The notes under the pieces were generated by a model that made no database searches, had not been told where the DNA came from, and saw nothing but the letters and a program-made list of their open reading frames with translations. Source: an uncultured Archangium sp. (GTDB taxonomy: Bacteria; Myxococcota; Myxococcia; Myxococcales; Myxococcaceae). Taken from it: DNA of 64,000 nt. The stretch lies in NCBI GenBank assembly GCA_964459885.1, contig CAYWON010000011.1:3302-67301 (forward strand), written 5' to 3'. How positions within the stretch are numbered: position 1 is the first letter of the stretch; every line of letters begins with the position of its first letter. A program made the translations under genes and the position numbers. Positions 44,017 through 60,158 of the stretch are shown piece after piece.

Positions 44017-44057
44017 CGACAGGTTGGTACGAGGCCCCGGAATTCAATGGGTTGAGA

Positions 44058-44100
44058 CGTCGAAGACTGACGTTGAAGGGTCGAAGACTGACTTTGGAAG
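44058..44100. repeat. tandem 21/22-bp direct repeat (gtcgaagactgacNttNgaagg x2), with degenerate copies to about 44150
   Basis: gtcgaagactgac occurs at 44058-44070 and 44079-44091. Further ggaagg-terminated units follow, including gtcgaagcgcc at 44121. Confidence 0.7.
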
Positions 44101-44193
44101 GTGCTCCGGAGGCGCGGGAAGGTCGAAGCGCCTCGACGGAACGTGGAAGGCATCGAGCGGGGCGTTGAAGCCCACGCTCGACGGGTCAGCGCT

Positions 44194-44865: not shown

Positions 44866-44944
44866 GTGTACCCCCCTCAAGTGCCGCGAGAGTGCGGCGC
44901 ACGGAGGAGACCCGGCCGAGTTGAGGGCCGTCAAGGTGGAGGCC

Positions 44945-45685
44945 TCAAGTTCCCGGGAAGAGGTCGCCCTGCGTGACGCGCGGCGGCCAGAAGACCCCGA
45001 GGATCAGGAAAGTCTGCGGGTGCGCCTGCATGTTGCCGGTGAAGAACAGAGGGTCCTTCTTCGGTCCGCACAGCTCGTCGAAGTACTTGGTCTGCACAGC
45101 GCGAATCGTCGCTTCTTCAGAGTGTCCTCGGCGGTAGCCGCGCCACAGCTCGGCGAGTTCCCAGTCGAGGATCTTCATCTGGTGCGGCTCTTTCGTGCGG
45201 CAGTCGTGGCAGCGGTACCGGTTTGCGAGCTGCTCGTCCGTCCAATCCGGCGTGCTCTCCGGTGCCGCGACAACCTCGAGAACCTCGCGTGGTCGGAAGA
45301 CGCCCAGCGACGTTCCGTTCTGCGTCTGCGCCTCCTGAATCGTGCACATCGACGGCTGAAGAAGTGGGAGCACCACTTCCTTGCGAGCCTTCCACTCCCT
45401 GTCGGTGGAGAGCTCCTCGCCGAGGATCTTGATGCTCTCGGTGATCGGTCGAATCGTCTCGGGGCGAGGGTCGGTCTTCTTCTTGTTCGCCTCGTAGGTG
45501 ACCTCGACCCACTGGTACTTCTTGAAGCGTTGGCTCTCGTCGAGGTCGCGGAAGGGGATCGGATACAGCCGGACCCACTTCTTCTCGTCGGAGATGCCGG
45601 CGATGCACGCCGCCTCGCCAAGGGTGCTGCTGGGGTTCGGGTACGCCTTGACCGTGATCAGCACCTTCTTCTTCGACAACGCCAT
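44945..45685 (-). CDS. hypothetical protein, no recognised domain (partner of the DUF488 fusion gene)
   Basis: 246 aa with a G-rich SD upstream. K/E/W-rich composition and more A/T at third codon positions than flanking genes. Features: KAYPNPSSTLGEAACIAGIS...WVRLYPIPFR and CHDCRT...H. Confidence 0.7.
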   Translation of the reverse strand: MALSKKKVLITVKAYPNPSSTLGEAACIAGISDEKKWVRLYPIPFRDLDESQRFKKYQWVEVTYEANKKKTDPRPETIRPITESIKILGEELSTDREWKARKEVVLPLLQPSMCTIQEAQTQNGTSLGVFRPREVLEVVAAPESTPDWTDEQLANRYRCHDCRTKEPHQMKILDWELAELWRGYRRGHSEEATIRAVQTKYFDELCGPKKDPLFFTGNMQAHPQTFLILGVFWPPRVTQGDLFPGT

Positions 45686-45715
45686 CCCACGCCCCCGTGC
45701 GCGAAGTCGCGCGAG

Positions 45716-46585
45716 CTACAGGTGAACCACGTCGAGTCCCACTCGCTTCGAGATGATGGGCGCCAGTGAGCCGCGGTGGCAATCGTGCGCGTGCGCCTCG
45801 AAGCAGAGCAGCGCCGACGGCCGCTCCAGCATCAGCGCCTCGACGCGTGCCTGGGCGTCGCTCGCTTCAGGGACAATCGTCTTTCGGTAATGCGCGAAGA
45901 GTTCACTGCGCGCGCCGGGCTTCGAGAGGTCGACACGAAGACTCGAAGGAATGCCGAGCTGAGGAACGTGCACGTAGTCGATGCCGACGTTCTTGCAGTG
46001 TCCCTTCAAGACGCCGCCGATGAACCCGTACTTGTTCGAGTACGCGTTCTTTCGAACGTCGACGACGCGTCGAATGCCTTTCTCGAGCAGCTTGTTCAAG
46101 AAGCTGTCGACCGAGCCGCCTTCGTAGCCGCAAGTGTAGATGGCTGGAGGCGCGAGCCGCGGCTTCACAGCCTGACTCTTGCTCCGCGACGCAAACCACG
46201 GGTGCTTCTCGTAGACGCGTTCGATGAGTTCGCTGCGACTGAGGTTGCCCCAGCCTTCGAGCACGGCATCGACGATGGCGCTCGCCTTGCGGGTGAGCTT
46301 GGTCAACGCCGCGTCGACGCGCTCGCGAGACGCGATGGCGACCGAGTCGTCGCTTGCGGTCATCAGGCCGGCGCGGACCAGCTTGTCGAACTCGTTGTAG
46401 GCGGTGAACGAGAAGGGGCCGTATTGGTACGGGAGGAAGTCGTAGAACGGCAGCGCATCGGCCGCGTGGTGTTCGGCGCCTGCGATGAACAGCCACTTCA
46501 CCAGCTTGAGCCGAGTGACCGTGCCGGGCGCGCGGGCAACGAAAGCAAGCTGCATTCGTTGTCGCCCGAAGAGGATTTCACTCAT
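45716..46585 (-). CDS. fusion protein: N-terminal winged-helix/SocA-Panacea (DUF4065)-like region plus C-terminal DUF488
   Basis: 289 aa. The C-terminal 140 aa match DUF488 (YeaO family) landmarks: IYTCGYEG...F...L...GIRRVVDVR, GIDYVHVPQLG and ALLCFEAHAHDCHR. The N-terminal LKLVKWLF...YQYGPFSFTAYNEF resembles Panacea; this is tentative. Confidence 0.75.
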   Translation of the reverse strand: MSEILFGRQRMQLAFVARAPGTVTRLKLVKWLFIAGAEHHAADALPFYDFLPYQYGPFSFTAYNEFDKLVRAGLMTASDDSVAIASRERVDAALTKLTRKASAIVDAVLEGWGNLSRSELIERVYEKHPWFASRSKSQAVKPRLAPPAIYTCGYEGGSVDSFLNKLLEKGIRRVVDVRKNAYSNKYGFIGGVLKGHCKNVGIDYVHVPQLGIPSSLRVDLSKPGARSELFAHYRKTIVPEASDAQARVEALMLERPSALLCFEAHAHDCHRGSLAPIISKRVGLDVVHL

Positions 46586-46593
46586 CGGGAAAA

Positions 46594-46609
46594 GATCTCA
46601 CGCGAGATC
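46594..46609. promoter_or_regulatory. perfect palindrome GATCTC-N4-GAGATC, 9 bp upstream of the DUF488 gene start
   Basis: On the minus strand it reads GATCTCGCGTGAGATC followed by TTTTCCCGATG. It could be an hsdS terminator-like hairpin or an operator/translation-control hairpin. Confidence 0.3.
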
Positions 46610-46700
46610 GTCAGGGTCCAGCCAAGAGGTCCCGAGCGTAGCTGTGCAGCCAGCCAACGGAGTCGACGTCACGGCGGTCCGACACTGGCTTCTGATGCGA

Positions 46701-48119
46701 CTACGTCACGAGTTCGCCGCGGAAGGCCTTCGCGAGCAGCGCGCGTTCGAACGAGTCCACGTTCAGCAGCAGGTCGAATGCGACCATCTTTCCGCCGTTT
46801 GCTCCATCCAGCGTGGACCGCAGACCACGCATGAGTTCGGCTTGCTCGGCAGCAGGCGCAAGTGGAACTGCGCGCGCTCGGATGTCGCTGAGGTTCATTC
46901 GTACGCGGCCAAGTCCGTGGCCAGCGCCAGCCGCACGTGCAAGCGAGCCAGGGCTGTTCAAGCTCCACATCACGAAGTTCCGTGAGATCGCCGCGACAGG
47001 CCGAACCCGGACGCAGTCCGCTTTCACAATCGCTTTGCCGAGCGCAGCCGGAGCTTCGCAACAGCGTCCGACGGGCTCGGCGAGCGCGGACACGATGAGG
47101 TCGCCTGCCACAACCTCATGGCGAATCAGTTGGTCGAACTTCTCGCGTGGAACCCGCGCGAGGTCGCCGTCTTTGAAGACGCCTACGCCGAGGTTGCCGA
47201 GCCTCACGACCACGGGTCCATCACTCACGTAGTCGGCAGACTTCAGATGAGAGCCGAACGGACCATCCACGATTCCGTCCGCCTCGTGCGTGATCGATTC
47301 GAGACTGGTCCACGCCCAACTCGGAGGGAGGTCGGGAAGGTCGGAGGTGTCGACGGGTTCGGGCTCGACGTACTTGGACTTCCACTTGTCGTCCTTCGGC
47401 GACTTGCCCTTGGCCTTCAGCTTCGCGAGTTCGGCGGCTTCCCACTTCTGGCGGCGCTCGATGCGGATGCGCTCGAGGAGCTTCGACGCGGGCTCGACGT
47501 CGGGGTTCTTCTTCCTCCAGTCGGCCGTCAGGTCGCCCCGGAACGCCGCCGCCAACACCGACTGCCGGTACTGCTCCACCAGCGCGGGCACCGCCTCGAG
47601 TTGCTCCCTCGCCGCTCGGGTCAGTACCAGCAATTCGTCGAGCTTCGCCACGATGCGCCGCTGAACATCGAGCGGAGGAATTCCGAGCTCAGTCCCTTCG
47701 AACTTGCCCTTCGTGATGTGTCCGAGCCCGACTCCGCCGTGAGCCTTCTCGATGAAGGTCGAAAGCCGCTGGTTCAGCGCGAAGCGAACGAAGCGCTTGT
47801 CGAGGGCCGCCTCATCGATCTCCACCTTGAAAATATGCTGGTTGAGAACGGCTCGGCCGCCGTTCCAGATGTGTGCTCCGAATGATGTGCCGGGAGTTCC
47901 GGACCACGCGAACAGGAGTTGCCCCGAATCGATGATGTGACGTGGCTCTACCTCGCCGTCGAAGTGATTGAACGGTGCATCCGCATTGTTCAGGTTCTGA
48001 ATTCGAACGATCGGCAGACCCGACCTCGACCAGTCCGTCGGCTTGAACGCGCGCCCGTTCTGGAGCCTGCAGACTTCGCCGACCGTCTTCGTCTCCCAAT
48101 CCGATGGGAAGTCGCTCAT
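46701..48119 (-). CDS. hsdS: type I restriction-modification specificity subunit
   Basis: Start MSDFPSDWE at 48119 overlaps the hsdM stop (ATGA). Two TRD-like halves (NGRAFKP...GLPIVRIQNL and a second copy) are separated by conserved helical spacers. Confidence 0.9.
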   Translation of the reverse strand: MSDFPSDWETKTVGEVCRLQNGRAFKPTDWSRSGLPIVRIQNLNNADAPFNHFDGEVEPRHIIDSGQLLFAWSGTPGTSFGAHIWNGGRAVLNQHIFKVEIDEAALDKRFVRFALNQRLSTFIEKAHGGVGLGHITKGKFEGTELGIPPLDVQRRIVAKLDELLVLTRAAREQLEAVPALVEQYRQSVLAAAFRGDLTADWRKKNPDVEPASKLLERIRIERRQKWEAAELAKLKAKGKSPKDDKWKSKYVEPEPVDTSDLPDLPPSWAWTSLESITHEADGIVDGPFGSHLKSADYVSDGPVVVRLGNLGVGVFKDGDLARVPREKFDQLIRHEVVAGDLIVSALAEPVGRCCEAPAALGKAIVKADCVRVRPVAAISRNFVMWSLNSPGSLARAAGAGHGLGRVRMNLSDIRARAVPLAPAAEQAELMRGLRSTLDGANGGKMVAFDLLLNVDSFERALLAKAFRGELVT

Positions 48120-49555
48120 GCGGACCTCTCCAACTCGGTCACGGCAGCGAGCGCTCCTTCGAGCTTCTCGCGGATCTGCGCGAGCACCACCTCCGGCTCC
48201 GGCAGGTCGTCCGCGTCGGTGTGGCTCTCGTCCTTCAGCCACGCGACGTCGAGGTTGTCGTTGCGCTCCTTGATGGCCTCGCGCGTGAACTTCCGGAAGC
48301 GGCCTTCTTCACCCTGGTCCTTCCGCTTCGACTTCCCGTTCGCGTCTTCGCCGTACGCCGCTCGGAACTCCGCGAAGTGCTCCAACGTGAACGGCGTGCG
48401 CTTGCCGAACGCCGGCATGTTCGCGCGCATGTCGAAGAACCACGTCGCCTTCGTGTTGCCCTTGTCAGTCGCCCCGCGCGTGAAGAACAGCACGTTCGTC
48501 TTCACGCCCTGGGCGTAGAAGATGCCCGTCGGCAGACGCAGCACCGTGTGGAGGTCGCACTTGTCCATCAGGTCGGCGCGAATCTGCCGGCCGACGCCGT
48601 CTTCGAAGAGCACGTTGTCAGGCACCACCACCGCCGCGCGGCCGCCGGGCTTCAGCGCCCGGTACACGTGCTCGATGAACGCCAGCTGCTTGTTGCTGGT
48701 GGGGAACGTGAAGTCGTCGCGCGTGGGGCGCCCACCGCCGGCTTTGTTCCCGAACGGCGGGTTGGTGAGGATGACGTCGGCCTTCGTCTTCGCCAGCTCC
48801 GCGCCCTGCGGTGACAGCGTGTCGCCCGCGCGCAGGTCGCCTTCGATGTCGTGGAGCAGCAGGTTCATCAACGCCAGCCGCCGCGTCTCGTCGACGAGCT
48901 CCATGCCGTAGAACGCCTGGCGTTTCTGGAACTCCTGCTTGCCCGCCGGGAGGTCGAAGAGGTTGTCGGTGTTCGCCTTGATGAAGCGGTCGGCCTCTAT
49001 GAGGAAGCCCGCGGTGCCGGCCGCCGGGTCCTGCACCAGCTCGCCGGGCTGCGGCTTCAAGCACTGCACCATCGCGGTCACCAACGGGCGCGGCGTGAAG
49101 TACTGGCCGGCGCCCGACTTCACTTCGTTGGCGTTCTTCTGGAGCAGCCCTTCGTAGAGATCGCCCAGGTTCTCGCGGTCTTCGCTGAACCAGCTGAGCT
49201 CGTCGAAGTGCCGCACCAGCGCGCCAAGCGTCTTCGGGTGCTTCACGGTGGTCTGCGCGCCCTCGTAGATGTCTTTGACGAGCTTGTTCTTCGACTTGCC
49301 GAGGTCGAGGAGCAGCTGTCGGTAGTGCTCGAGTTGCTCGACGCCCTCGCGTTTGACCAGCGAGTCCCATCGCTGCTTCTCGGGGAGCACGCCGTCTTCG
49401 CGCTTCTGCTCCTTCATCATCTTGAGGAAGAGCAGGTAGGTCAGCTCGGTCACGTACTGGTGGTAGGTGACGCCGTCTTCACGGAGCAGCGTGCACAGGT
49501 TCCAGAGCTTCTGAACGATGTCGGTCGTCGCGGTGGCCATCGGGCGGCGCACCAT
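48116..49555 (-). CDS. hsdM: type I restriction-modification N6-adenine DNA methyltransferase subunit
   Basis: HsdM N-terminal domain (IVQKLWNLCTLLREDG), motif I DPAAGTAGFL and catalytic NPPF (LTNPPFGNK). Start at 49555 (MVRRP) or 49540 (MATATT). Confidence 0.95.
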   Translation of the reverse strand: MVRRPMATATTDIVQKLWNLCTLLREDGVTYHQYVTELTYLLFLKMMKEQKREDGVLPEKQRWDSLVKREGVEQLEHYRQLLLDLGKSKNKLVKDIYEGAQTTVKHPKTLGALVRHFDELSWFSEDRENLGDLYEGLLQKNANEVKSGAGQYFTPRPLVTAMVQCLKPQPGELVQDPAAGTAGFLIEADRFIKANTDNLFDLPAGKQEFQKRQAFYGMELVDETRRLALMNLLLHDIEGDLRAGDTLSPQGAELAKTKADVILTNPPFGNKAGGGRPTRDDFTFPTSNKQLAFIEHVYRALKPGGRAAVVVPDNVLFEDGVGRQIRADLMDKCDLHTVLRLPTGIFYAQGVKTNVLFFTRGATDKGNTKATWFFDMRANMPAFGKRTPFTLEHFAEFRAAYGEDANGKSKRKDQGEEGRFRKFTREAIKERNDNLDVAWLKDESHTDADDLPEPEVVLAQIREKLEGALAAVTELERSA

Positions 49556-49604
49556 AGTCGCCGAGCGTTGGTCTTCGGCGGGGAACGCGCTATGCGGCGG
49601 CCGG

Positions 49605-49985
49605 ATGCCGGGGCCGGTCGACGAGTTGATCAAGGCGGTTGCCGAGGGCGCGCGAAAGGCGGCTCCAGGCGACGGTGCGCTCGTGAAGACGCACATCGCA
49701 CAGGCTCCGTTCAACCGCGAAGTTCGGCGCGAGGATGCCTGGGCCCGACTGGGGTATTCGGTCGCTGGTGCGGCACATCCTGCGCGGCTGGGCGAGACGA
49801 TCTCTGCGACGACCAGCCTCTCGAGCCTCGAGTTTCACACCGCGAAGCGGGTGCTCGACGGCCAATGGGCGCCCCAGACAACGCCCGAGGCGTACGAGGC
49901 TGATTGTCAGCGGGCAGCCCAGATGGCTTACCTCGTCAAGGGGCGCTCCGAGGCGTTCCTCTCGCTGCGACTCAAGCCCGCGTGA
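49605..49985 (+). CDS. hypothetical small protein
   Basis: 126 aa from ATG 49605. The track ORF starts at 49518, which would overlap hsdM. Third-position GC is consistent with coding. The SD is weak and no domain is recognised. Confidence 0.4.
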   Translation: MPGPVDELIKAVAEGARKAAPGDGALVKTHIAQAPFNREVRREDAWARLGYSVAGAAHPARLGETISATTSLSSLEFHTAKRVLDGQWAPQTTPEAYEADCQRAAQMAYLVKGRSEAFLSLRLKPA

Positions 49986-50063
49986 CAGCTACTGATTTTC
50001 CGAACGTGCGGGTGGTGCCGGGTCAGGTTCTGTTGGTCGTGTACGACACCGTGAAGGGACGAC

Positions 50064-50414
50064 ATGAACCTCTCCGCCTACATCGAAGCGCTGGAACGCT
50101 CCGCTAAGAACCTCCCGGGTGTGTTGCTCGACTGGGACTCGCTCGATGAGGAACTCCGCGCGCACTACTCGGAAGCGATGGTGGAGCTGTTGGCTCGCCA
50201 TCAGCAGGCTGACAGAGAAGCGTCGTCTGCCGAGCGCGTGCAACTGGGTCGCGCGTGGAGCGTTTTCATGACTGGTGTCGTCCAGCATGTGTGGGCGATC
50301 GCGAACTTCATGGGCTTCAACCCGCTTGAGCTCGTCGCGCCGTCGTCGGTGGTCGTGGACTCTTTCGAGCCTGCGTCCGGGGCGGCGTCGTCGCCCCTCG
50401 CCATCGCCGCATAG
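50064..50414 (+). CDS. hypothetical small helical protein
   Basis: 116 aa with a good SD (GAAGGGA 6 nt upstream). No domain recognised. Confidence 0.55.
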   Translation: MNLSAYIEALERSAKNLPGVLLDWDSLDEELRAHYSEAMVELLARHQQADREASSAERVQLGRAWSVFMTGVVQHVWAIANFMGFNPLELVAPSSVVVDSFEPASGAASSPLAIAA

Positions 50415-50417
50415 CCC

Positions 50418-50852
50418 ATGCGCATCGTCACGCTCATCGCGGCCGAGGGGGTTGCTGTCGACGTCTTCACGGGACGCGTGTCGGCCTACAACATCGTCGA
50501 CCGGATCTTCGCGCCGACGACACCGGCGCGGTTTCCCCGACTGCATCTGCTCGTGCAGTTCGAGCGCGGCGCTGACGAGCAGGCTGAGCGCTCGTTCCTC
50601 AAGATCGAGCTCCTCGCCCCGAGCGGTGCCGATGTGCTCAACGCGCCGCTTCAAGAAATGACCCTCACCGAGCGCACGCACACGTCGGTGCACCACGCGT
50701 GGAACGTTCATCTTCCCGATGTGGGCGACTACCTGCTGCGGGTGAGCGCTTCGCCCAGCGCTGAAGGCGCGTGGACCGAGATGTCGTCGCGTCTCGTTCC
50801 CGTGGTGCAGACCCAGCACCCGTTGATGCCGGTGCCGGCGCCGTCTCGCTGA
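50418..50852 (+). CDS. hypothetical small beta-rich protein (DUF6941-like, very tentative)
   Basis: 144 aa, beginning 3 nt after the previous stop. The N-terminus MRIVTLIAAEGVAVDVFTGRVSAYNIVDRIF...FP reminds me of DUF6941-type proteins. Confidence 0.5.
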   Translation: MRIVTLIAAEGVAVDVFTGRVSAYNIVDRIFAPTTPARFPRLHLLVQFERGADEQAERSFLKIELLAPSGADVLNAPLQEMTLTERTHTSVHHAWNVHLPDVGDYLLRVSASPSAEGAWTEMSSRLVPVVQTQHPLMPVPAPSR

Positions 50853-50858
50853 GCCCGG

Positions 50859-53573
50859 CTACCAGTACGTGACGCCGAACCGCTCTCCGAGGTTGAAGAG
50901 CTCGCGGTGGGCGTCTTGGTGACCGGGCCACTTTCGCTCGAGCTCTCTGAAGGTGGGCGTGTGCAGCGCCTGCAGATGCAGGTGCAGGAACTCGTGCCAC
51001 AGCAGGAACTTCAACGTGTCCGCCGACACGTCGGGACTGTCGAGCAGTCGGTTGATCATGATGCGCCCCTGGCCGTGGGCATCGCTGGGTTGCCACCTGG
51101 CCCAGCCGTACAAGTTCTTGAGGATGCGGTTGCTCCATTGCGGGCTCACCGACGAGGAGGTCGAGAGGTCAGCTTCGAGAATCGTGCTGCCCTGCCGCAG
51201 CACGTCGGCGAAGAGCGTCGGGAGACTGTGATGTGGGCCGAGCGTCATCTGGTCCTTCGGCCCGGGCTCGAAGACGGGCACTGCACGCGGCACGTGCGTG
51301 GCCTCGTCCGGGTGTTCGAGCTCATAGAGCGCATCGTTCACCGCACTCTGGAACGCACGCGGAGTTGGGTACACCACTCGGGCCAGCGGCGTGTAGCGCT
51401 CGTCGAGCAGCTGTTGCCGTCGCCGTTCGCCGAGGTCCTCGTCGCTGATGATGCGCGCGAGCGCCGCTGGGTCGCACTGCTCGCGTTCTTTCAGCGGTCG
51501 GAACGTCGGCCGTTCGCCGCGCGCGCGAACGTGCTCCAGCGCAGCGCGGAGCTGCTCGGTGCCAGGCGCTGGCGAGTCGCAGTCTGAGAAGAACTCGTCG
51601 AACAGCGCCTCGGCGGTCGCTCGCTCAAGCCGCTCGGCAGAGAGTGAGTAGAGGACCTTGAACAGCTGCTCCCAGCACGGGAGTTGGTGTTGGTACACGG
51701 CGATGGTCTGGCGGACCGGCTCGCCCTCGTCCTCGCGTTCGAGCACGTACCAGCCGTGGTGGAGTGCCTCGAACGCGTCCGCCTCGTGGCCCGGCCCCCG
51801 GAGGCGAATCTCGCGCACCAGCTCGACGACTGCGTCCCAGGGCAGCGCGACGCGGATGGATTCGAGCAAGTCGTCTGCATGGGGCTCGTCGTCGGCTGAA
51901 AGGCGGCCCGCCGGCTCGGCTTCGCTCGGCTCGGTGGGCGCGATGATGTCGGGTACCAAGGCCAGCTGGCCCTGCCAGTCGCGGAATCGTTCCCAGTGGT
52001 CCTCGAACGAGACGATGTACGCGGTGTCCTTTCCGCCGGCCGCGCGCCCACGCAGCGCTCGGCCGATCATCTGGCGCAGCAGAATCTCGCTGTGGGTCGG
52101 CCGCGTGAGGAACACCGTCTGCACGTTGGGGAGGTCGACGCCTTCGGTCACGATCTGCACGTTCACGAGCACGTCGATGCCACCGTCCTTCTCGCGGAAG
52201 CGCTGCAGGATCTCGGTGTTGTCGACGGCGTCGTCGTCGACGCGGTAGCTCGCGACGTACTCCGCCGCGACCTTCTCTTCCTTCAACATGTGCGTCAGCA
52301 ACGCGGCGTGGTCGACGTTGAGCGCGAAGATGAGCGTCTTGCCGTACTTCTCCTTGTTCTGTGTGTAGTGCCCGACGATCTCCCTGTTGCGCGGCACCAT
52401 GGCCGCGATGCGCGCGAGCCACGCCTCGCTCAGCTCGTCGAACCTCGCCATGTTCTCGAGGTCGGCTGGGGTGACGCCGTCCTCGACCTTCGCGCCGGTC
52501 AGCACGGTGATGGGAACCGGGCGGGCGAGGAACCCGCGCTCGATCAGTTCGGTCGTCGAGACCGAGTAGAGGATGCGGTCACCAAAGAGACGGGACAGTG
52601 TGGGCCGCTCGTCCTCGGCGGTGCGCGTCGGTGTCGCGGTCAGGCCGAGCAATCGACCGCTCGCGCCTTCGAAGCGAGCGATGACGTTGCGGTAGCTGCG
52701 CGCGACAGCGTGGTGCGCCTCGTCGATGACGACGAATGACCTCGGGTCCTTCAGCACTGCATCGATGAGGTCGAGGCGCCGAGACACGCTGCCGATCGAG
52801 CTGACGATGACGTCGTCGTGTGGATCGATCTGGGTCGTCGCGCAGTGTTCGCTTGAGACGATGCGTACCCTGAAGCGCTCTTTGGGCGCGGCGTGCGCGG
52901 CGAGCTTGTGGAACTCGCGAGCAGCCTGGTTCAGCAGCTCAGCGCGGTGGGCGAGCCACAGCACGCGGCCGCCTTTGGCGACGACGTGTTCGACCAACCA
53001 TCGAACGGCGGTGAACGTCTTTCCAGAGCCGGTGGGCATCACCAGCATGCCGCGGAAAGAGCCGGAGGCTTGCCCTTGTGCGAGGTGCGCCGAGAGCTTT
53101 TCCCAGGCCGCCTGCTGGTAGTCGTGCGGCGCTCGGTCATCGAGCGGTTGTGCGGCGGGCTTGATGATCGAGAAACGCGGCGTGAACGCAGCCGACGCGG
53201 GCTGGTTGTCGCGGTCTGCGTCTCCGAAGCGGATGAGTGTGTCCAGCAGCATCCGCCGCAGCCGGGACGAGTTTCGGGTGTCGCCGACGAAGCGCGCGGC
53301 CTCTTCAGTCGTGCTGGGCCGTATGTTCGTCGGCCCGAGACCTGCGTCGCGGAGGCGGTCCACGAGCAACGTCGTGCCTGCGTAGGTCGGCAGCCAGAGA
53401 GCCGCGAGCGTCTTCTTGTTCCGACCGACAAACTCCTCGTTCGGTCGTTTGACCTGCTCCGAGAGCCACGCTCTCGCGTCGGCGATGTCGTCGCGCCAGT
53501 CCTTTTCGTTTTGGGCCAGGGCCTTCACGACGGCATCGTCGAAGGCGCTCCAGGAGAAGCGGTACGCGGGCAT
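50859..53573 (-). CDS. SF2 (ResIII/DEAH-type) helicase with a C-terminal YgjP/DUF45-like HExxH metallopeptidase motif
   Basis: 904 aa. MPTGSGKT, VIDEAHH, GLTATP and QMIGRALRG. The C-terminal WHEFLHLHLQALHTPTFRELE can be compared with the YgjP-family HE..HL....H(S/T)P.F pattern. SD AAAGGA. Lies 21 bp downstream of hsdR. Confidence 0.85.
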   Translation of the reverse strand: MPAYRFSWSAFDDAVVKALAQNEKDWRDDIADARAWLSEQVKRPNEEFVGRNKKTLAALWLPTYAGTTLLVDRLRDAGLGPTNIRPSTTEEAARFVGDTRNSSRLRRMLLDTLIRFGDADRDNQPASAAFTPRFSIIKPAAQPLDDRAPHDYQQAAWEKLSAHLAQGQASGSFRGMLVMPTGSGKTFTAVRWLVEHVVAKGGRVLWLAHRAELLNQAAREFHKLAAHAAPKERFRVRIVSSEHCATTQIDPHDDVIVSSIGSVSRRLDLIDAVLKDPRSFVVIDEAHHAVARSYRNVIARFEGASGRLLGLTATPTRTAEDERPTLSRLFGDRILYSVSTTELIERGFLARPVPITVLTGAKVEDGVTPADLENMARFDELSEAWLARIAAMVPRNREIVGHYTQNKEKYGKTLIFALNVDHAALLTHMLKEEKVAAEYVASYRVDDDAVDNTEILQRFREKDGGIDVLVNVQIVTEGVDLPNVQTVFLTRPTHSEILLRQMIGRALRGRAAGGKDTAYIVSFEDHWERFRDWQGQLALVPDIIAPTEPSEAEPAGRLSADDEPHADDLLESIRVALPWDAVVELVREIRLRGPGHEADAFEALHHGWYVLEREDEGEPVRQTIAVYQHQLPCWEQLFKVLYSLSAERLERATAEALFDEFFSDCDSPAPGTEQLRAALEHVRARGERPTFRPLKEREQCDPAALARIISDEDLGERRRQQLLDERYTPLARVVYPTPRAFQSAVNDALYELEHPDEATHVPRAVPVFEPGPKDQMTLGPHHSLPTLFADVLRQGSTILEADLSTSSSVSPQWSNRILKNLYGWARWQPSDAHGQGRIMINRLLDSPDVSADTLKFLLWHEFLHLHLQALHTPTFRELERKWPGHQDAHRELFNLGERFGVTYW

Positions 53574-53594
53574 CGGGTGGTGGTCCTTTCGGGG

Positions 53595-56500
53595 TCAGCC
53601 GGTTTTCCAGATCTCGTCCTGCAGCTCGCCGACGACGTCGGTGAGCTTGCCGTCGAACACCTTGTCGATGCGCTCGAATCCGCCGTTGTCGCGGAAGGCG
53701 CCTTCGTCGAGCAGCGGCCGGTCGACGAGCTCGTTCTCAAGCACCGCCTTCGCGATGCGCTTGAGCCACTGCACCTGCGGGTTGCTCCACTTTCGTGACG
53801 CCAGCACGCGCTGCAACGCCTCGTTCACGCGTTGCTCGTATGGCTTGAGCGGCTCGCCCAGCGCCCCCTGGCGGATGTGCCCGATGATCGACGCGGCGAA
53901 GTCGGCGTTGGTCGTCGCCTTGTTGGCGGCGCGCAGCTGCGTCTCGGAGTAGCCGGCTTGATCCAGCTCGAGCTTCAGCTTCTTCAGCTCGGCGCGCGTG
54001 AGGTCGCGCGGTCGCTGCATGACGGCCTTGAGGGCGGTGACCTTGTTCTCGTTCTCCTTGAGGTAGCGCGAGAACGCGGCGAGGTACTCCTCGGGGCGCT
54101 GGCGGCCCGGCCCGAAGCCCACCGTGACCGAGACGAGCTCGTCGTCGTCATCCGCCACGATGGCGCCGAGCGCCTTCTTCTTCGTGGTGTCGAGCAAGCG
54201 CGTCACCTGCTGATGCGCCGCGAGCCACTTCGCCAACTCGACCGCGGACCCTGACACCAGCGACCGCAGCACCTCGTGAATCGACGCGCCCGCGGCCGCC
54301 TCGAAGCGCTCGGCGTCGGCGCCTTCCGAGAACAGCGCCTTGCGTCGTTGCAGCTTCGCGAGGAACTCGTCGCGCACGTGCTCCGCCGAAATGCCCTGCT
54401 GATGGGCGAGGTCTTCGGCCAGCTGCGCGAACGTGAACGACGGGTTGGCGACGACTGGCTTCATCGTCGTGAATTGCTCCAGCGCCGCGTACAGGTCGAC
54501 TGCGTCGAAGATGCGGAACGATTCCTTTCCAGGGAAGAGTCGCGTCGCGCGGCCCAGCATCTGCTCATAGAGAATTCGGCTGCGCACCCGTCGCAAGAAG
54601 ACGAGGTTGCTGATCGACGGCACGTCGACGCCGGTGGTGAGCAGGTCTACCGTCACCACCACCGACGGCAGTTGCTCGTTTTTGTATCGGCGAAGCAGGC
54701 CACTTGGGTCGTCGCTCTTGCCGGTGATCTTCTTCACCGAGTTCGCGTCGACCTCGCCGTAGCGCTTCTGGAACTCCGCGAGCATCAGCTTCACGACGAG
54801 ATCTGCGTGCTCGTCCGTCGCGCAGAAGATGAGCGTCTTCCCCGGCAGGCTGGGGTCGAGCTGTCGGGCGAGTTCCTCGCAGACGACACGGTTGAAGTTC
54901 TCGGTGATGACCTGGCGATTGAATGACTCGACCTCGAAGTCGACCTCGTCCTCAAGCGTCACGAAGTCGGGCTCTGGGTTGAGCGTGGTGACCCGCTCGC
55001 CGGCCTTGAAGTGAATGCCCTCGGTCGCGAGCTTCGTGGTGATGGTGATGGGCGGGTCGTGGTCGACGAGGAAGCCTTCGACCACTGCCTGCCGGTAGCC
55101 GTACTCGAAGACGGGGCGACCGAAGATCTCAGTGGTGTGGAACGCAGGCGTCGCGGTGAGGCCGACCTTCACCGCGTCGAAGAAGTCGAGCACCCGCCGG
55201 TAGACCGACAGGTACTCGTTCTGGTCGCGGAAGGTGAGCTCGGCTTCCGAGAGGTCTTTGTCGAGCGTGTACCCGCGGTGGCACTCGTCGACGACGATGC
55301 AGTCGTAGTCGTCCACGTGGAGCAACGGCACGTCGCCGGTTCCATCGAAGAGTCTGCGGGCGACGGCCTGCACCGTCGCGAAGTGGAGCCGCGTTTCCGG
55401 ATCGGGCGTGACGTCTTCGAGTTCCTTGATGTTGAAGATGTCGCTGAACTTGCGGGTGCCGTCGACGAACTCACTCTGGAAGGCCGCGGCCGCCTGTTCG
55501 CCGAGCGCGTTGCGGTCGACGAGGAACAGCACGCGGCGGAAGCGGCCGGTCTTCACCAGTCGGTAGATGAGGCCGATGAAGGTGCGCGTTTTCCCGGTGC
55601 CCGTCGCCATCGAGACCAGCACCTGCCGCTTGCCGGCTGCGATGCTGTCTTCCACCGCGCGAATGGCGCCGACCTGGTACGCGCGCAGGCCTGGCAGGTC
55701 CGCGGGTGACTCGTGCTTGAGCCGCTCGGTGGCTGCGTCGATGTCCTGCTTGAGCAGCTCTCGGAGACCGTCAGGTGTGTGCCATGCCGGGAGCGCGCGG
55801 GGCAGGTTGGTCGTCTTTCGTGCGTCGACGAACCAGATGCCCGACTTCGTCGTGAGCTGCTTGAACCAGGGGCGACCGTTCGTCGCGTAGAGGAATGGGA
55901 CGGCGAACTCGCCCCACGGTGCGGCTTCGGCGCGGTTCTCTTCGGGCAGTTCGAGGCCGCGCGCGTACCGCTGCGACTGCTCGAGTGACGCGCTGACGTC
56001 ACGAGCCTGGCGCTTGGCTTCGACGATTCCGACGGCGGTGAGCCCTGCGAAGAGCACGTAGTCAGCGGGGCCATTCTTCGTCGGCCACTCTGCGATCGCG
56101 AGGTTGCGGCCAGCGACCGGACGGGTTCCGTTGCTGTACCGAAGCGTCTGAGAGTCGGCTTCCCACAGGGCCTCGCGGAGCTGCTGGTCGATGATGAGGC
56201 GCGTGTCGGCTTCGTCGATCTGAATCGCCGCGCCCGCGTCGATGAGCTGCGCCGTGAACTTCTGCGTCTCTGCACTGGGTCTGGCCTCGGCTGCAGCGGC
56301 GGCGGCCTGAAGCGTCGCGAGCCGTTGCGCGTCGGCGTCCGCCGCGAGTTGTTCCCACAGCGCCGCGTCGGCCGCGTCCCGCTTCGCGCGCTCCTCGGCG
56401 TCGAGTCGTCGCCGCGACTCTTCAGCCGCGACCGCCTTCGCCGCCTCGACCGAGAGCTTCGCCTCTTCGAGGTGTTTCCGAAGGCGTTCCAGCTCGGCCC

Positions 56501-56954
56501 GAAGTTCCCGGGTTCCGGCGTCAGGGTCGACGGGCGGAACGAAGGGGCCGGGGCTGAACTTCGGCTGCCGGCTGAAGACGCGGTGAAACCAGATCGCGAG
56601 TTCTCGTGCGAGCTTGAGGCACGTCAGCGCGTCGCGGTGCGTGCCGCGGTTCTGGTGCGTCGCTTCGTTGCCGGCACGTCGGATCGCAGTGAAGGCTTCG
56701 TTCGCGTCCGGCGTCAGCGCGCGGGCGCTCTGAAGCCGGCGCACGAGGTCGTTCTGCGGTTCGAGCGGAATGATGGGCAGCCCGAGGTTCGCGGCGGTGC
56801 GTTGTGCCAGCAGTTCACCGAACTGACGCAGCTTGATGAGCGCCGTGACGGGGTCGTTCGCGAAGTACCGCTCGGCGAGGGCGCCGAGGAGAACCAGCTG
56901 CGGATCGTGGGACTGCAGGAAACCGAAATTCGCTGACGTAGGAACCCCGACCAT
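53595..56954 (-). CDS. hsdR: type I restriction endonuclease R subunit with an N-terminal DUF4145 and coiled-coil extension and an EcoEI-type C-terminal domain
   Basis: I chose the start at 56954 (MVGVPTSANFGFL). Nuclease motif ADYVLF...GIVEAKR. Helicase motifs MATGTGKT, VVDECHRG and GLTATP. The C-terminal domain resembles the EcoEI R C-terminal domain. Confidence 0.93.
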   Translation of the reverse strand: MVGVPTSANFGFLQSHDPQLVLLGALAERYFANDPVTALIKLRQFGELLAQRTAANLGLPIIPLEPQNDLVRRLQSARALTPDANEAFTAIRRAGNEATHQNRGTHRDALTCLKLARELAIWFHRVFSRQPKFSPGPFVPPVDPDAGTRELRAELERLRKHLEEAKLSVEAAKAVAAEESRRRLDAEERAKRDAADAALWEQLAADADAQRLATLQAAAAAAEARPSAETQKFTAQLIDAGAAIQIDEADTRLIIDQQLREALWEADSQTLRYSNGTRPVAGRNLAIAEWPTKNGPADYVLFAGLTAVGIVEAKRQARDVSASLEQSQRYARGLELPEENRAEAAPWGEFAVPFLYATNGRPWFKQLTTKSGIWFVDARKTTNLPRALPAWHTPDGLRELLKQDIDAATERLKHESPADLPGLRAYQVGAIRAVEDSIAAGKRQVLVSMATGTGKTRTFIGLIYRLVKTGRFRRVLFLVDRNALGEQAAAAFQSEFVDGTRKFSDIFNIKELEDVTPDPETRLHFATVQAVARRLFDGTGDVPLLHVDDYDCIVVDECHRGYTLDKDLSEAELTFRDQNEYLSVYRRVLDFFDAVKVGLTATPAFHTTEIFGRPVFEYGYRQAVVEGFLVDHDPPITITTKLATEGIHFKAGERVTTLNPEPDFVTLEDEVDFEVESFNRQVITENFNRVVCEELARQLDPSLPGKTLIFCATDEHADLVVKLMLAEFQKRYGEVDANSVKKITGKSDDPSGLLRRYKNEQLPSVVVTVDLLTTGVDVPSISNLVFLRRVRSRILYEQMLGRATRLFPGKESFRIFDAVDLYAALEQFTTMKPVVANPSFTFAQLAEDLAHQQGISAEHVRDEFLAKLQRRKALFSEGADAERFEAAAGASIHEVLRSLVSGSAVELAKWLAAHQQVTRLLDTTKKKALGAIVADDDDELVSVTVGFGPGRQRPEEYLAAFSRYLKENENKVTALKAVMQRPRDLTRAELKKLKLELDQAGYSETQLRAANKATTNADFAASIIGHIRQGALGEPLKPYEQRVNEALQRVLASRKWSNPQVQWLKRIAKAVLENELVDRPLLDEGAFRDNGGFERIDKVFDGKLTDVVGELQDEIWKTG

Positions 56955-57036
56955 TCCGGCGATGAGTGTAACTGCAAACATCGGCGAGGCCGAACTCAGC
57001 GGCGATGGCACGAATGGTGTATCGCTGCGGCCTCAG

Positions 57037-58182
57037 ATGACCGTCGCTTCCTGGATTGAGCTCTCGCAGTCGGCCTACGCCGCCAACGTCGCCACCTTCC
57101 GCAAGATCGCCGCCGGCGCGCGCGTGGGCGTGGTGCTGAAGGGGAACGCCTACGGCCACGGCCTCGTCGAGACGTTGTCGCTCGCGCACGCGTTGGTCGA
57201 CGTTATCTACGTCATCACCCCCAGCGAGGCCGCGGCGATTCGCGCGTGGGAGAAGGCGAACAGCCGACCGCCCCGCGAGGTCCTCGTCATCGGTGCGGTG
57301 TCGGCGCAAGACGTCGTCGACCTCGCGCGGCTGAACGTCAGCGTCGTCGCGGCAGATCGTGGCTTCGACGCCGCGTTGCGTGCGCTCGAGGCGGCGGGGC
57401 TCGAGACCGACGTGCACGTGCACCTCGACACCGGTCTGGGTCGCGAAGGCTTCACCCGCGCCGCACTCGAGCGGGGCGACGCTGATTTCCTGAAGGGCGC
57501 CCGGGTGCGCGGCGTCATGAGCCACTTCGCCAACACCGAAGACGTCACCGAGCAGGACTACGCGCGCACCCAGCTCGCGAACTTCGAAGCGGGCGAGGCG
57601 CTCGTGCGGCAACGCCTCGGTGTCACCGCACTCCAGCGTCACTTCGCCGCGAGCGCGGCGGCGTTGGTGCTGCCTCCCGCGCGACTCGATGTCGTGCGCG
57701 TCGGCATCGCGATGTACGGGCTGTGGCCCTCGGCCGAGACGCGGCTGTCGGCGCGCGTGGTGTTGGGTGAGGTGCCGACCCTCGAGCCGGTCGCGTCGTG
57801 GAAGGCACCCAGCCAGGTCGTGAAGTGGCTGCCGGCGGGCAGCTTCGTTGGCTACGGCTGCACGTACCGTTGCGCCGCTGACACGCGCGTCGCCGTGCTG
57901 CCCGTTGGCTATTGGGACGGCTACCCGCGCCTCGCGTCTGGCAAGGCGCACGTGTTGGTCAACGGCGCCCGCTGTTCTGTCCTCGGCCGCGTCATGATGA
58001 ACCACCTCATCGTCGACGTGACCCACGCGGTGAAGGACGACGCGCCCGTCACGGCGACGCTGCTGGGCCGGGACGGCGACGAGGCCATCTCTGCAGAGAC
58101 GCTCAGCGCCTGGGCCCAGACGATTCACTACGAGACGATGACCCGGGTTGGCGCACATCTGCGCCGTGCCGTCGTGCCCTGA
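57037..58182 (+). CDS. alr: alanine racemase
   Basis: Start MTVASW at 57037. PLP-Lys motif VLKGNAYGHG, plus VRVGIAMYG and GYGCTY. Confidence 0.9.
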   Translation: MTVASWIELSQSAYAANVATFRKIAAGARVGVVLKGNAYGHGLVETLSLAHALVDVIYVITPSEAAAIRAWEKANSRPPREVLVIGAVSAQDVVDLARLNVSVVAADRGFDAALRALEAAGLETDVHVHLDTGLGREGFTRAALERGDADFLKGARVRGVMSHFANTEDVTEQDYARTQLANFEAGEALVRQRLGVTALQRHFAASAAALVLPPARLDVVRVGIAMYGLWPSAETRLSARVVLGEVPTLEPVASWKAPSQVVKWLPAGSFVGYGCTYRCAADTRVAVLPVGYWDGYPRLASGKAHVLVNGARCSVLGRVMMNHLIVDVTHAVKDDAPVTATLLGRDGDEAISAETLSAWAQTIHYETMTRVGAHLRRAVVP

Positions 58183-58192
58183 CCTCTCGGCT

Positions 58193-60148: not shown

Positions 60149-60158
60149 GCCGTAGCGT

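What the first reader, a model, noticed from the sequence alone, without database searches (positions are those of the whole stretch)
50859..53573. Helicase fused to a YgjP/DUF45-like metallopeptidase motif, co-transcribed with hsdR
Seen: a 904-aa ORF begins 21 bp after the hsdR stop, on the same strand, with an AAAGGA SD. It has a complete SF2 core (MPTGSGKT, VIDEAHH, GLTATP, QMIGRALRG; roughly aa 150-520). About 150 N-terminal aa and about 300 post-helicase aa match nothing I recognise. The last about 70 aa contain LLWHEFLHLHLQALHTPTFRELERKW, that is HExxH-L-(5)-H-T-P-x-F. Established, from memory: YgjP/DUF45 (M48-like) peptidases carry HE.xHL...NH(S/G)..F. Stand-alone DUF45 genes are frequent passengers in type I R-M operons. 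Effectors embedded in hsd loci exist, for example the PrrC anticodon nuclease in the EcoprrI locus and the rlo genes in Campylobacter type IC loci. Inference: a helicase-peptidase fusion in this slot could be a second-line or guard module that acts on, or is triggered through, the type I complex. I do not know of a described defence system with this architecture.
Basis: partly seen in the sequence, partly recalled or inferred. Interest (0 to 1): 0.82.

Follow-up and report, generated by a model that had tools for sequence, protein, structure and literature searches.

The report
Helicase fused to small zinc protease
A 904-residue protein that joins a DNA-motor (helicase) to a tiny zinc protease is real, belongs to a rare but deeply conserved and so far undescribed family that mostly sits in anti-phage defence islands, and in this genome happens to be inserted inside a type I restriction locus rather than being a dedicated partner of it.

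Summary
The ORF is on the minus strand (53573..50859). It starts 21 nt after the hsdR stop. It is followed by two convergent small genes, not directly by hsdM-hsdS.

All four helicase motifs and the HExxH-x6-H tail are present. They are conserved in every one of 46 related loci from at least seven phyla.

The tail is a minimal zincin:
- Pfam SprT-like matches 26 of 28 homolog tails, and YgjP-like matches 8 of 28.
- A PDB profile search and AF2 plus Foldseek both find selecase (E 1e-4). Selecase has the same H/H/H spacing.
- The window protein's own SprT-like score is below Pfam's cut-off.

The C-terminal module occurs almost only behind this helicase (303 clusters among 1.84 billion representatives).

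The family is not tied to type I R-M. Only this window and a 72%-identical ortholog have the hsdR-adjacent arrangement. Six of nine independent close-homolog loci lie in recognisable defence islands (DISARM-like, BREX/McrBC, Abi_2, MmeI).

It has no full-length match in PADLOC v2. It is absent from the phage and plasmid collections. No description turned up in the literature searched.

Best reading: a stand-alone candidate defence or DNA-surveillance protein, in which a DNA translocase delivers a protease to DNA-bound proteins, embedded in an hsd locus. The mechanism is inferred, not shown.

The parts
53595..57011 (-). hsdR, the type I restriction subunit (1138 aa), with an N-terminal DUF4145-type extension and EcoEI_R_C. 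It lies upstream of the helicase-zincin gene in the same transcription unit.
   Evidence: Pfam ResIII, Helicase_C, EcoEI_R_C, DUF4145. NF008521, 1446 bits. PADLOC REase_I, 2.5e-253.
53574..53594 (-). 21-nt hsdR-helicase intergenic spacer containing a GAAAGGA Shine-Dalgarno-like sequence.
   Evidence: One search gives the sequence. One search finds no terminator-like site on this strand. The ortholog has a 30-nt gap at the same junction.
50859..53573 (-). The whole helicase-zincin gene (904 aa plus stop).
   Evidence: GC3 is 0.86, typical of coding sequence. More than 100 full-length homologs were found.
53130..53573 (-). N-terminal all-helical domain (aa 1-148). It is specific to this family and has no known relative.
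   Evidence: AF2 pLDDT is 80-94 for most of it. It is conserved in A1/A4. No PDB hit; no Pfam or NCBIfam hit for aa 1-150 of the window protein.
51984..53129 (-). SF2 helicase/translocase core (aa 149-530) with motifs I, II (DEAH), III and VI.
   Evidence: ResIII 9e-26, Helicase_C 5e-14. Foldseek top hits are RadD, XPB, SauUSI and an HsdR fragment; phrog_16, 261 bits. The motifs are invariant.
51840..51983 (-). Variable, acidic, low-confidence linker (aa 531-578).
   Evidence: pLDDT is below 50 for aa 548-577. This stretch of alignment A1 is rich in gaps.
51249..51839 (-). Middle alpha/beta domain (aa 579-775) with conserved G607, H629-Q630, F662-x-D664-C-D and R697. Function unknown.
   Evidence: conservation; pLDDT 73-93 from aa 601. 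No PDB or Pfam relative.
50862..51248 (-). C-terminal minimal zincin (aa 776-904). H860-E861-x-x-H864 lies on the active-site helix, H871 is the third ligand, and E879, W882 and F899 are invariant.
   Evidence: SprT-like in 26 of 28 tails, YgjP-like in 8 of 28; selecase/proabylysin profile hits with aligned H/E/H/H. AF2 pLDDT 89.7. Foldseek selecase, E 1.1e-4. SprT-like phage proteins.
50418..50852 (+). Convergent DUF6941 gene (144 aa). Its stop lies 6 nt from the helicase stop.
   Evidence: PF22091, 4.7e-9, above its cut-off. The same gene is in the orthologous locus L081.
50064..50414 (+). 116-aa gene of unknown function, upstream of and co-directional with the DUF6941 gene.
   Evidence: GC3 0.80. 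A 115-aa counterpart is present in L081. No family hits.
48116..49555 (-). hsdM. The start is approximate (M54 of the 532-aa maximal ORF).
   Evidence: N6_Mtase 3e-76, HsdM_N. MTase_I 3.7e-212.
46701..48242 (-). hsdS, the specificity subunit.
   Evidence: Methylase_S. Specificity_I 1.3e-64.

Best explanation
The gene encodes a member of a rare, horizontally spread and so far unnamed family of single-polypeptide helicase-protease proteins. Its parts are:
- an ATP-driven SF2 nucleic-acid translocase, related to RadD, XPB and HsdR;
- two family-specific domains, one N-terminal and one in the middle;
- a C-terminal zinc endopeptidase of about 125 residues, of the SprT/selecase 'minimal zincin' type.

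The most likely role is an autonomous defence-island (conflict) gene. The motor and the family-specific domains would engage DNA, either invading or replicating foreign DNA or abnormal DNA-protein complexes. The tethered protease would then cut a protein met on that DNA, or cut a host or self protein once activated.

In this genome the gene was captured into a type I R-M locus. It sits directly behind hsdR and is transcribed with it. Such loci are well-documented landing sites for other defence genes. The placement gives co-regulation with restriction and does not imply an obligatory physical partnership.

Shown: the domain make-up, conservation of the catalytic residues, the predicted fold, the restriction of the C-terminal module to this helicase, the genomic contexts, and the operon position.

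Inferred: ATPase and translocase activity, proteolytic activity, the substrate, and the anti-phage role.
For: Architecture:
- Helicase motifs I, II, III and VI are invariant, as is HExxH-x6-H.
- The tail is a zincin by four tests: Pfam SprT-like in 26 of 28 tails with best E 9e-7; PDB profile hits to selecase and proabylysin with H/E/H/H aligned; AF2 pLDDT 89.7 with Foldseek to selecase at E 1.1e-4 and TM 0.55/0.69; and SprT-like viral proteins in BFVD.
- The helicase core resembles RadD, XPB, SauUSI and HsdR.

A dedicated fusion:
- The C-terminal 374 aa finds only 303 clusters among 1.84 billion representatives. Most longer hits (about 750 to 950 aa) carry it at or near their C terminus.
- The full-length architecture is conserved in more than 100 proteins from Myxococcota, Cyanobacteria, Acidobacteriota, Planctomycetota, Bacillota, Synergistota and Actinomycetota.

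Accessory or conflict character:
- Distribution is patchy.
- GC3 is 0.86 for this gene and for hsdR, against about 0.93 for flanking core genes.
- Six of nine independent close-homolog loci are in recognisable defence islands: type I R-M; Abi_2; NERD-kinase with large helicases; SNF2/Eco57I, Mrr and DrmA-like; MmeI, AAA+S8 and UvrD/DrmA/MZB/PLD; McrBC and BREX.
- In the distant branch the gene forms a conserved cassette with two partner genes, which are sometimes fused to it.

Independence from type I R-M:
- No HsdM or HsdS was found in any of the 80 genome loci.

Precedent:
- Embedding of unrelated defence systems in type I loci is documented: TgvAB (PMC11411939), DarTG2 (PMC12255303) and 'guilt by embedding' (10.1101/2024.01.29.577857).
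Against: - There is no experimental evidence for any member of the family.
- Three of nine close-homolog loci show no clear defence context: P0028 lies among metabolic genes, P0035 lies next to an HhH-GPD glycosylase and a NUDIX gene, and P0003 is uninformative. This also fits a repair role.
- The defence-island tally is small and has no matched background control.
- The window protein's own SprT-like score (16.9 to 17.6 bits) is below Pfam's cut-off of 25.6.
- Minimal zincins can be autoprocessing or even non-proteolytic: YbeY, a weak structural hit, is an RNase.
- The tight hsdR linkage is kept at 72% protein identity, so a local functional coupling cannot be excluded.
Confidence: 0.5

Rival explanations
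1. DNA-protein crosslink or roadblock repair enzyme. The helicase tracks along DNA and the SprT-like protease digests proteins covalently trapped or stalled on it. This would be a bacterial one-polypeptide analogue of eukaryotic SPRTN/Wss1 working with a helicase. Next to hsdR it could also clear HsdR motors stalled on host DNA, a form of restriction alleviation that ClpXP performs in E. coli.
For: - The tail matches SprT-like models and Spartan-like viral proteins.
- The helicase core is closest in structure to the repair helicases RadD and XPB.
- Some homologs neighbour repair-type genes: RmuC, and HhH-GPD glycosylase with NUDIX. One lies among housekeeping genes.
- From my own knowledge: SPRTN/Wss1 are DNA-dependent DPC proteases, and ClpXP degrades translocating HsdR. 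The latter is cited as Simons et al. 2014 in the reference list of PMC12255303.
Against: - The family is rare and patchy (303 clusters). A repair function would be expected to be inherited vertically within clades.
- Most contexts are defence islands.
- The island has lower GC3 than the core genome, which suggests horizontal transfer.
- RadD family membership fails: 102 bits against a cut-off of 720.
Confidence: 0.2
2. Dedicated accessory of the adjacent type I R-M system. It would be a second-line effector or guard that senses inhibition of, or is recruited by, the HsdR2M2S complex. For example, it could degrade anti-restriction DNA mimics or HsdR itself.
For: - The gap after hsdR is 21 nt, carries an SD and has no terminator.
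- The same hsdR-helicase-DUF6941-115aa-hsdM-hsdS order is retained in a genome whose ortholog is only 72% identical.
- Precedents for embedded effectors exist: PrrC, mentioned in 10.1101/2024.01.29.577857, and the M48 peptidase gene flanking an hsd-DarTG island (PMC12255303).
Against: - Only one lineage shows the arrangement. None of the 80 genome loci has HsdM or HsdS nearby.
- Seven other annotated close-homolog loci lack type I genes.
- Family-wide conservation of all domains without hsd genes shows the protein works without them.
Confidence: 0.12
3. Mobile-element or counter-defence protein, or a self-processing polyprotein. As in the polyvalent proteins of phages and conjugative elements, and in ArdC, the zincin would cleave host defence proteins or release the protein's own domains at the flexible linker.
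For: - Zincin-like peptidases combined with SWI2/SNF2 ATPases are a common theme in polyvalent proteins, and ArdC carries a C-terminal metallopeptidase (PMC5512222).
- The helicase core scores highest against a phage helicase family, phrog_16, at 261 bits.
- A disordered linker separates the motor from the C-terminal module.
- One cyanobacterial copy lies on a plasmid-assigned scaffold (L003).
Against: - No record among 50,697 phage or 72,556 plasmid records carries the full-length fusion.
- The Pfam hits for the ORFs examined between 39.6 and 62 kb include no integrase or conjugation family.
- The phage hits cover the helicase core only.
- The protein lacks the methylase, ArdC-N and other domains typical of polyvalent proteins.
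Confidence: 0.06

Closest known systems
Selecase / proabylysin (minigluzincins; M. jannaschii MJ1213, PDB 4qhf; P. abyssi, 4jiu)
   Same: The fold is a zincin of about 110 residues with a helix, a small beta-sheet, an active-site helix and C-terminal helices. The ligand spacing is identical (HExxH-x6-H, followed by x-x-x-F). It is the best structural match (Foldseek E 1.1e-4, TM 0.55/0.69) and the best PDB profile match.
   Different: Those are free-standing archaeal proteins. Sequence identity is only about 19 to 22%. Here the domain is the C-terminal module of a 904-aa helicase.
SprT-like / Spartan / Wss1 zincins (PF10263)
   Same: It is the most frequent Pfam match for the family's tails (26 of 28, best E 9e-7) and dominates the BFVD fold hits. 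From my own knowledge, it shares the idea of a protease acting on DNA-bound proteins.
   Different: The window protein is below the Pfam gathering score. No Zn-ribbon or SprT C-terminal region was detected. DNA-dependence of proteolysis is untested. SprT proteins are not fused to helicases.
YgjP-like / DUF45 'M48-family' peptidase genes that flank type I R-M operons
   Same: It has a similar HExxH...H-(S/T)-x-x-F motif and belongs to the same broad zincin group. Such a gene sits beside an hsd island in EPEC (PMC12255303).
   Different: PF01863 does not hit the window protein, and only 8 of 28 homologs match weakly (best 0.0026). DUF45 proteins are stand-alone proteins of about 170 to 250 aa. 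The third-histidine spacing is longer by one residue than the DUF45 motif as I recall it (from memory, not tested here).
RadD / XPB / HsdR-type SF2 motors
   Same: It has the same RecA1-RecA2 core with DEAH. These are the top Foldseek and NCBIfam matches.
   Different: Scores are far below every family cut-off. No PD-(D/E)xK nuclease domain, RadD zinc finger or HsdR C-terminal domain was detected. The N-terminal and middle domains are unique.
Single-protein helicase-effector defence systems (Hna, Nhi, Hhe, type II Mokosh) and the BREX BrxL Lon-like protease
   Same: The logic is the same: an NTP-driven nucleic-acid motor carries its own effector domain and is encoded in defence islands. From my own knowledge, BrxL couples a DNA-binding AAA+ ring to a protease domain.
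   Different: The effector here is a zincin protease rather than a nuclease or a Lon domain. There is no sequence relationship beyond the helicase core (PADLOC). No activity has been demonstrated.
Defence genes embedded in type I R-M loci (PrrC, TgvAB, DarTG2)
   Same: The position is the same, between hsdR and hsdMS, with co-transcription with an hsd gene.
   Different: The proteins are unrelated. PrrC is almost always hsd-embedded, whereas this family is hsd-embedded in only one lineage.

Membership tests
SF2 helicase (ResIII/DEAD + Helicase_C) | Motifs I (GxGKT), II (DExH), III (TAT) and VI (QxxGRxxR) in two RecA-like domains, scoring above the Pfam cut-offs | tested here: met
   ResIII 91 bits (cut-off 22.5), DEAD 55.5 (26) and Helicase_C 52.9 (23.5). 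The motifs are invariant. The AF2 core matches RadD and XPB.
Type I HsdR | Full-length match to HsdR models, including the N-terminal PD-(D/E)xK nuclease and the C-terminal domain | tested here: not met
   TIGR00348 27 bits against 284.55; NF046051 112 against 550; NF008521 67 against 729. Only the helicase core aligns.
RadD (YejH) repair helicase | Equivalog-level full-length score | tested here: not met
   NF053632 scores 102 bits against a cut-off of 720. The Foldseek match covers the motor only.
SprT-like (PF10263) | Score above the Pfam gathering threshold | tested here: not met
   The window tail scores 16.9 to 17.6 bits against 25.6. However, 26 of 28 homolog tails match at E<=1, with best E 9e-7.
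SprT-like (PF10263) | HExxH on the active-site helix with a downstream histidine ligand, and a zincin fold | tested here: met
   H860, E861, H864 and H871 are invariant. The AF2 tail has the helix, strands, HExxH helix and two further helices. BFVD top hits are SprT-like.
YgjP-like / DUF45 (PF01863) | Match to the family model | tested here: not met
   No hit for the window protein, even at E<=10 on the isolated tail. Eight of 28 homolog tails match weakly, best 0.0026.
Minigluzincin (selecase/proabylysin) | Catalytic domain of about 100 aa with HExxH-x6-H, and fold similarity to 4qhf/4jiu | tested here: met
   HMM E 0.011 for selecase and 0.064 for proabylysin, with the ligands aligned in the selecase match. 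Foldseek E 1.1e-4, TMt 0.69. This rests on a predicted model and not on a solved structure.
Minigluzincin / any zincin | Zinc binding and peptidase activity | not testable with these tools
   This needs purified protein, metal analysis and a cleavage assay with an E861A control.
Known anti-phage systems (PADLOC-DB v2.0.0) | Full-length match to a system protein model | tested here: not met
   The best hits are PbeA at 4e-27, then mREase_IV and REase_I, all aligned to the helicase core only. There is no PDC hit. The same holds for a distant homolog.
hsd-embedded effector class (PrrC-like behaviour) | The family is predominantly found inside type I R-M loci | tested here: not met
   None of the 80 genome loci has HsdM or HsdS nearby. 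Only one of nine independent annotated loci is hsd-embedded.
Defence-island gene (guilt by association) | Neighbourhood enriched in known defence genes compared with background | tested here: inconclusive
   Six of nine independent close-homolog loci are in recognisable defence islands. The sample is small and no background control was run.

The most novel reading that the evidence does not exclude
This family is a new type of immune effector, a 'motor-delivered protease'. The helicase would load on foreign or aberrant DNA and reel in DNA-bound proteins, which the tethered zincin destroys. Candidate targets are phage replication, packaging or terminal proteins, DNA-mimic anti-restriction proteins, or a stalled HsdR. 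That would make it the first single-polypeptide helicase-protease defence system. In Bacillota-type lineages it would work with two further uncharacterised partner proteins.
Probability: 0.3. Interest if true: 0.8.

Novelty: new variant of a known kind. Interest (0 to 1): 0.6.

Why it matters
Known single-protein helicase-effector defence systems kill with nucleases. A conserved helicase whose only effector domain is a minimal zinc protease would add proteolysis of DNA-associated proteins to the list of immune or DNA-surveillance strategies.

It would also give a bacterial counterpart to the eukaryotic pairing of helicases with SprT-type proteases in DNA-protein crosslink repair.

The family is compact, with a single gene in the branch found here. 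Its catalytic residues are clear (K185, D284/E285, E861, H860/H864/H871), so it can be tested directly.

The result also shows that an hsd-embedded position is not evidence of functional coupling to the R-M complex.

Tried and rejected
1. I first translated the plus strand at the given coordinates. It gave only stops, because the gene is on the minus strand.

2. The 276-aa minus-strand ORF between the helicase and hsdM (49989-50819) was rejected as a gene. Its translation is Arg-rich and looks antisense, it has no family hits, and it fails the GC3 test. The real genes there are the two plus-strand ORFs.

3. Foldseek with the full-length model returned only helicases and said nothing about the other domains. 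I therefore remodelled the tail alone.

4. Profile searches of the N-terminal and middle domains against PDB chain sequences, a Pfam scan of the middle-domain alignment, and Pfam and NCBIfam scans of the window's own N-terminal segment found nothing credible.

5. I scanned 58 pooled neighbour proteins against PADLOC through a pseudo-alignment. The output was dominated by redundant DrmA and PDC-M03 models from two related cyanobacterial loci, so it could not be turned into a per-locus count.

6. The conserved partner proteins A and B of the distant branch gave no Pfam, PADLOC or PHROG match that identifies them, and B gave no PDB match. They are also absent from the window.

7. Literature searches for a helicase-SprT/zincin defence system, for DUF6941 and for DUF45 with R-M found no description of this family.

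8. The promoter and terminator consensus scan found nothing on the minus strand between 49400 and 57600. It is of little value in a 66% GC genome.

9. An exact-sequence look-up of the window protein in the assembly index found no record.


Full report
**1. Observation**

The coordinates are right, but the gene is on the minus strand. A plus-strand translation gives only stops. The minus strand gives an uninterrupted 904-aa ORF from the ATG at 53573 to the stop at 50859-50861.

The preceding minus-strand ORF (57011..53595, 1138 aa) is an unambiguous type I HsdR. NCBIfam NF008521 scores 1446 bits, PADLOC REase_I gives 2.5e-253, and Pfam finds ResIII, Helicase_C, EcoEI_R_C and an N-terminal DUF4145. 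Its stop is 21 nt from the ATG, with GAAAGGA in between. No terminator-like hairpin is found on that strand.

One detail differs from the title's implication. The gene is not followed by hsdM. Two plus-strand (convergent) genes come next: a DUF6941 protein (50418-50852; PF22091, 4.7e-9) and a 116-aa protein (50064-50414). After them, hsdM (about 49555..48116) and hsdS (48242..46701) form their own minus-strand unit.

**2. What the protein is made of**

Pfam, NCBIfam, PADLOC and PHROGs recognise only aa 146-533 or so, an SF2 motor.
- Pfam: ResIII 9e-26, DEAD, Helicase_C.
- NCBIfam: the best models are EcoAI-type HsdR and RadD, both far below their cut-offs.
- PHROGs: phrog_16 'DNA helicase' at 261 bits.

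An AF2 model built on 33 homologs has mean pLDDT 82.7. It shows five regions:
- a helical N-terminal domain (aa 1-120);
- the two RecA-like domains;
- a disordered acidic linker (aa 548-577);
- an alpha/beta middle domain (aa 579-775);
- a compact C-terminal domain.

Foldseek with the whole model returns RadD, XPB, SauUSI, Hef and an HsdR fragment. These matches cover the motor only.

**3. Is the tail a zincin?**

Yes, by four independent lines of evidence.
- Conservation. W859, H860, E861, L863, H864, L867, H871, E879, W882 and F899 are invariant in 33 full-length homologs.
- Pfam. I scanned 28 tails one by one. SprT-like matches 26 of them (best 9e-7), YgjP-like matches 8 (best 0.0026) and Peptidase_M78 matches 4. 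The window's own SprT-like score of 16.9 to 17.6 bits is below the cut-off of 25.6.
- PDB profile. A profile of the tails finds the minigluzincins selecase (MJ1213, E 0.011) and proabylysin (0.064). In the selecase alignment, H860, E861, H864 and H871 are aligned to its H-E-x-x-H-x6-H.
- Predicted structure. A separate AF2 model of aa 760-904 has pLDDT 89.7 and pTM 0.84. It shows a helix, short strands, the HExxH helix and two further helices. It matches selecase at Foldseek E 1.1e-4 (TM 0.55/0.69), then more weakly YbeY, ZMPSTE24, BepA and MMPs. In BFVD it matches mostly SprT-like or Spartan-like phage proteins.

A third ligand (H871) is therefore plausibly in place. The closest matches, however, are SprT-like by sequence and selecase by structure.

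**4. The family**

A search of 5.8 billion proteins returned more than 100 proteins of about 885 to 940 aa. They cover 100% of the query at 45-97% identity, and sources name them only 'DEAD/DEAH box helicase'.

The C-terminal 374 aa alone was scored against 1.84 billion cluster representatives. It finds only 303 clusters. Most longer hits (about 750 to 950 aa) carry it at or near their C terminus. The shorter hits look like fragments. The module therefore appears to be dedicated to this helicase.

Among 87 loci fetched, 46 carry helicase plus tail. They come from Myxococcota, Cyanobacteria, Acidobacteriota, Planctomycetota, Bacillota (Clostridia, Selenomonadales), Synergistota and Actinomycetota. 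The zincin signature is present in all 46, and Walker A, DEAH and motif VI in nearly all, apart from truncated contigs and two degenerate motifs; a branch of about 30% identity is included.

The N-terminal and middle domains have no detectable relatives in PDB sequences or Pfam.

**5. Genomic context**

tblastn with the window's HsdM and HsdS against 80 genome loci, each with up to 10 kb of flank, found none.

Annotated neighbourhoods of close homologs:

| Homolog | Neighbourhood |
|---|---|
| P0002 (72% identity) | Same arrangement as the window: alr, hsdR(DUF4145...EcoEI_R_C), helicase, DUF6941, 115 aa, hsdM, hsdS |
| P0004 | Abi_2 and RmuC |
| P0005 | NERD-kinase; DUF6361 plus large helicase genes |
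| P0006 | SNF2/Eco57I, HTH-M78, Mrr, DEAD-MZB, UvrD |
| P0012 and cyanobacterial L003/L004 | MmeI-type enzyme, AAA+S8 pair, UvrD, DrmA/MZB/PLD |
| P0007 | Between McrBC and a BREX cluster |
| P0028 | Metabolic genes |
| P0035 | AAA_21, HhH-GPD, NUDIX and a toxin-antitoxin pair |
| P0003 | Uninformative |

That makes six of nine independent loci in recognisable defence islands, but only one lineage inside a type I locus.

In the distant branch the helicase-zincin gene is flanked by two conserved genes: A (about 160 aa, HTH-like in appearance) and B (core of about 210 aa). Each is fused to the helicase in one locus. They have no Pfam, PADLOC or PHROG match that identifies them, and B has no PDB match. 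They are absent from the window.

No phage or plasmid record in the two collections carries the full-length fusion.

In the window, the island from about 43.8 to 57.0 kb has lower GC and GC3 than its flanks (0.80-0.86 against about 0.93). It lies between alanine racemase and beta-lactamase/CN-hydrolase genes. It also holds a Panacea-DUF488 fusion.

**6. Interpretation**

The protein is best read as an autonomous accessory (conflict) gene that was inserted into an hsd locus behind hsdR and is expressed with it.

Embedding of unrelated defence systems within type I loci is documented:
- TgvAB in Vibrio cholerae (PMC11411939);
- DarTG2 in EPEC, whose island also has a flanking M48 peptidase gene (PMC12255303);
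- the general 'guilt-by-embedding' survey (10.1101/2024.01.29.577857).

As for mechanism, the conserved catalytic residues in both modules and their obligatory fusion argue that motor and protease act together. The simplest model is an ATP-dependent DNA translocase that brings a small zinc protease to proteins on DNA. That step is inference, and no activity has been measured.

Three rivals remain:
- a repair role in removing crosslinked or stalled proteins, supported by the SprT and RadD resemblance and by a few repair-type neighbours;
- a local partnership with the type I enzyme, supported by conserved operon linkage in one lineage;
- an origin in mobile-element polyvalent or anti-restriction proteins (PMC5512222), which the absence from phage and plasmid collections argues against.

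**7. Known or new?**

No model in PADLOC-DB v2.0.0 matches beyond the helicase core. The curated libraries name nothing beyond 'helicase'. The literature searches found no description of a helicase-SprT/zincin system.

The kind is known: a helicase-effector fusion in defence islands, and embedding in an hsd locus. The protease effector and the two family-specific domains are not. I therefore rate it a new variant of a known kind.

Interest is moderate to high. The hypothesis is cleanly testable, but the function is unproven and the specific link to type I restriction is not supported.

Noticed in passing
window 50064-50852 (+): A convergent gene pair lies between the helicase gene and hsdM: a 116-aa protein and a 144-aa DUF6941 protein. 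The DUF6941 stop is 6 nt from the helicase stop. The pair is conserved in the 72%-identity orthologous locus (L081 12746-13534). It has no PADLOC or PHROG match, and no paper in the library mentions DUF6941. It may be a small embedded module of its own.
   Followed up: partly
window 56400-57011 (-), HsdR aa 26-218: HsdR carries an N-terminal DUF4145 extension. This region matches the PADLOC candidate model PDC-M16A (3e-25). The same architecture is present in the ortholog's HsdR.
   Followed up: no
window 45716-46585 (-): A 289-aa fusion of a SocA-like Panacea antitoxin domain with DUF488 lies just downstream of hsdS. It also matches phrog_14939 (1e-32). It is probably another defence or toxin-antitoxin-type passenger of the island.
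   Followed up: partly
L012, L014, L015, L016, L018-L020, L023, L024, L030, L031, L033, L035, L040, L047, L049, L063 (genes adjacent to the helicase): In the Bacillota/Selenomonadales/Synergistota branch, at about 30% identity, the helicase-zincin gene is accompanied by two conserved uncharacterised genes. A is about 160 aa. B has a core of about 210 aa, with invariant G109, Y111, R118, G174, G176 and W181. Each is fused to the helicase in one locus (L023 for A, L033 for B). This points to a three-component system in that branch.
   Followed up: partly
window 58148-62036 (+): Two large tandem proteins (666 and 625 aa) carry EGF/EGF_CA-like repeats next to alanine racemase. EGF-like repeats are, to my knowledge, unusual in bacterial proteins, and an EGF-repeat protein is also present in the syntenic ortholog locus.
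   Followed up: no
plasmid hits H16 and H17 (Deinococcus radiodurans NZ_OV024759.1 7941-9935; D. actinosclerus CP029776.1): Deinococcus megaplasmid helicases align to aa 147-774, which is the motor plus the family-specific middle domain, but not to the zincin tail. The middle domain may therefore also occur with other C-termini.
   Followed up: no
window 43800-57000: The whole hsd island has lower GC (0.61-0.69) and lower GC3 (0.80-0.86 for the helicase gene, hsdR and the two small genes, though hsdM is 0.92) than the flanking genome (GC 0.68-0.73, GC3 about 0.93). This is consistent with horizontal acquisition. The ORFs at 43811-45685 have no family assignment.
   Followed up: partly
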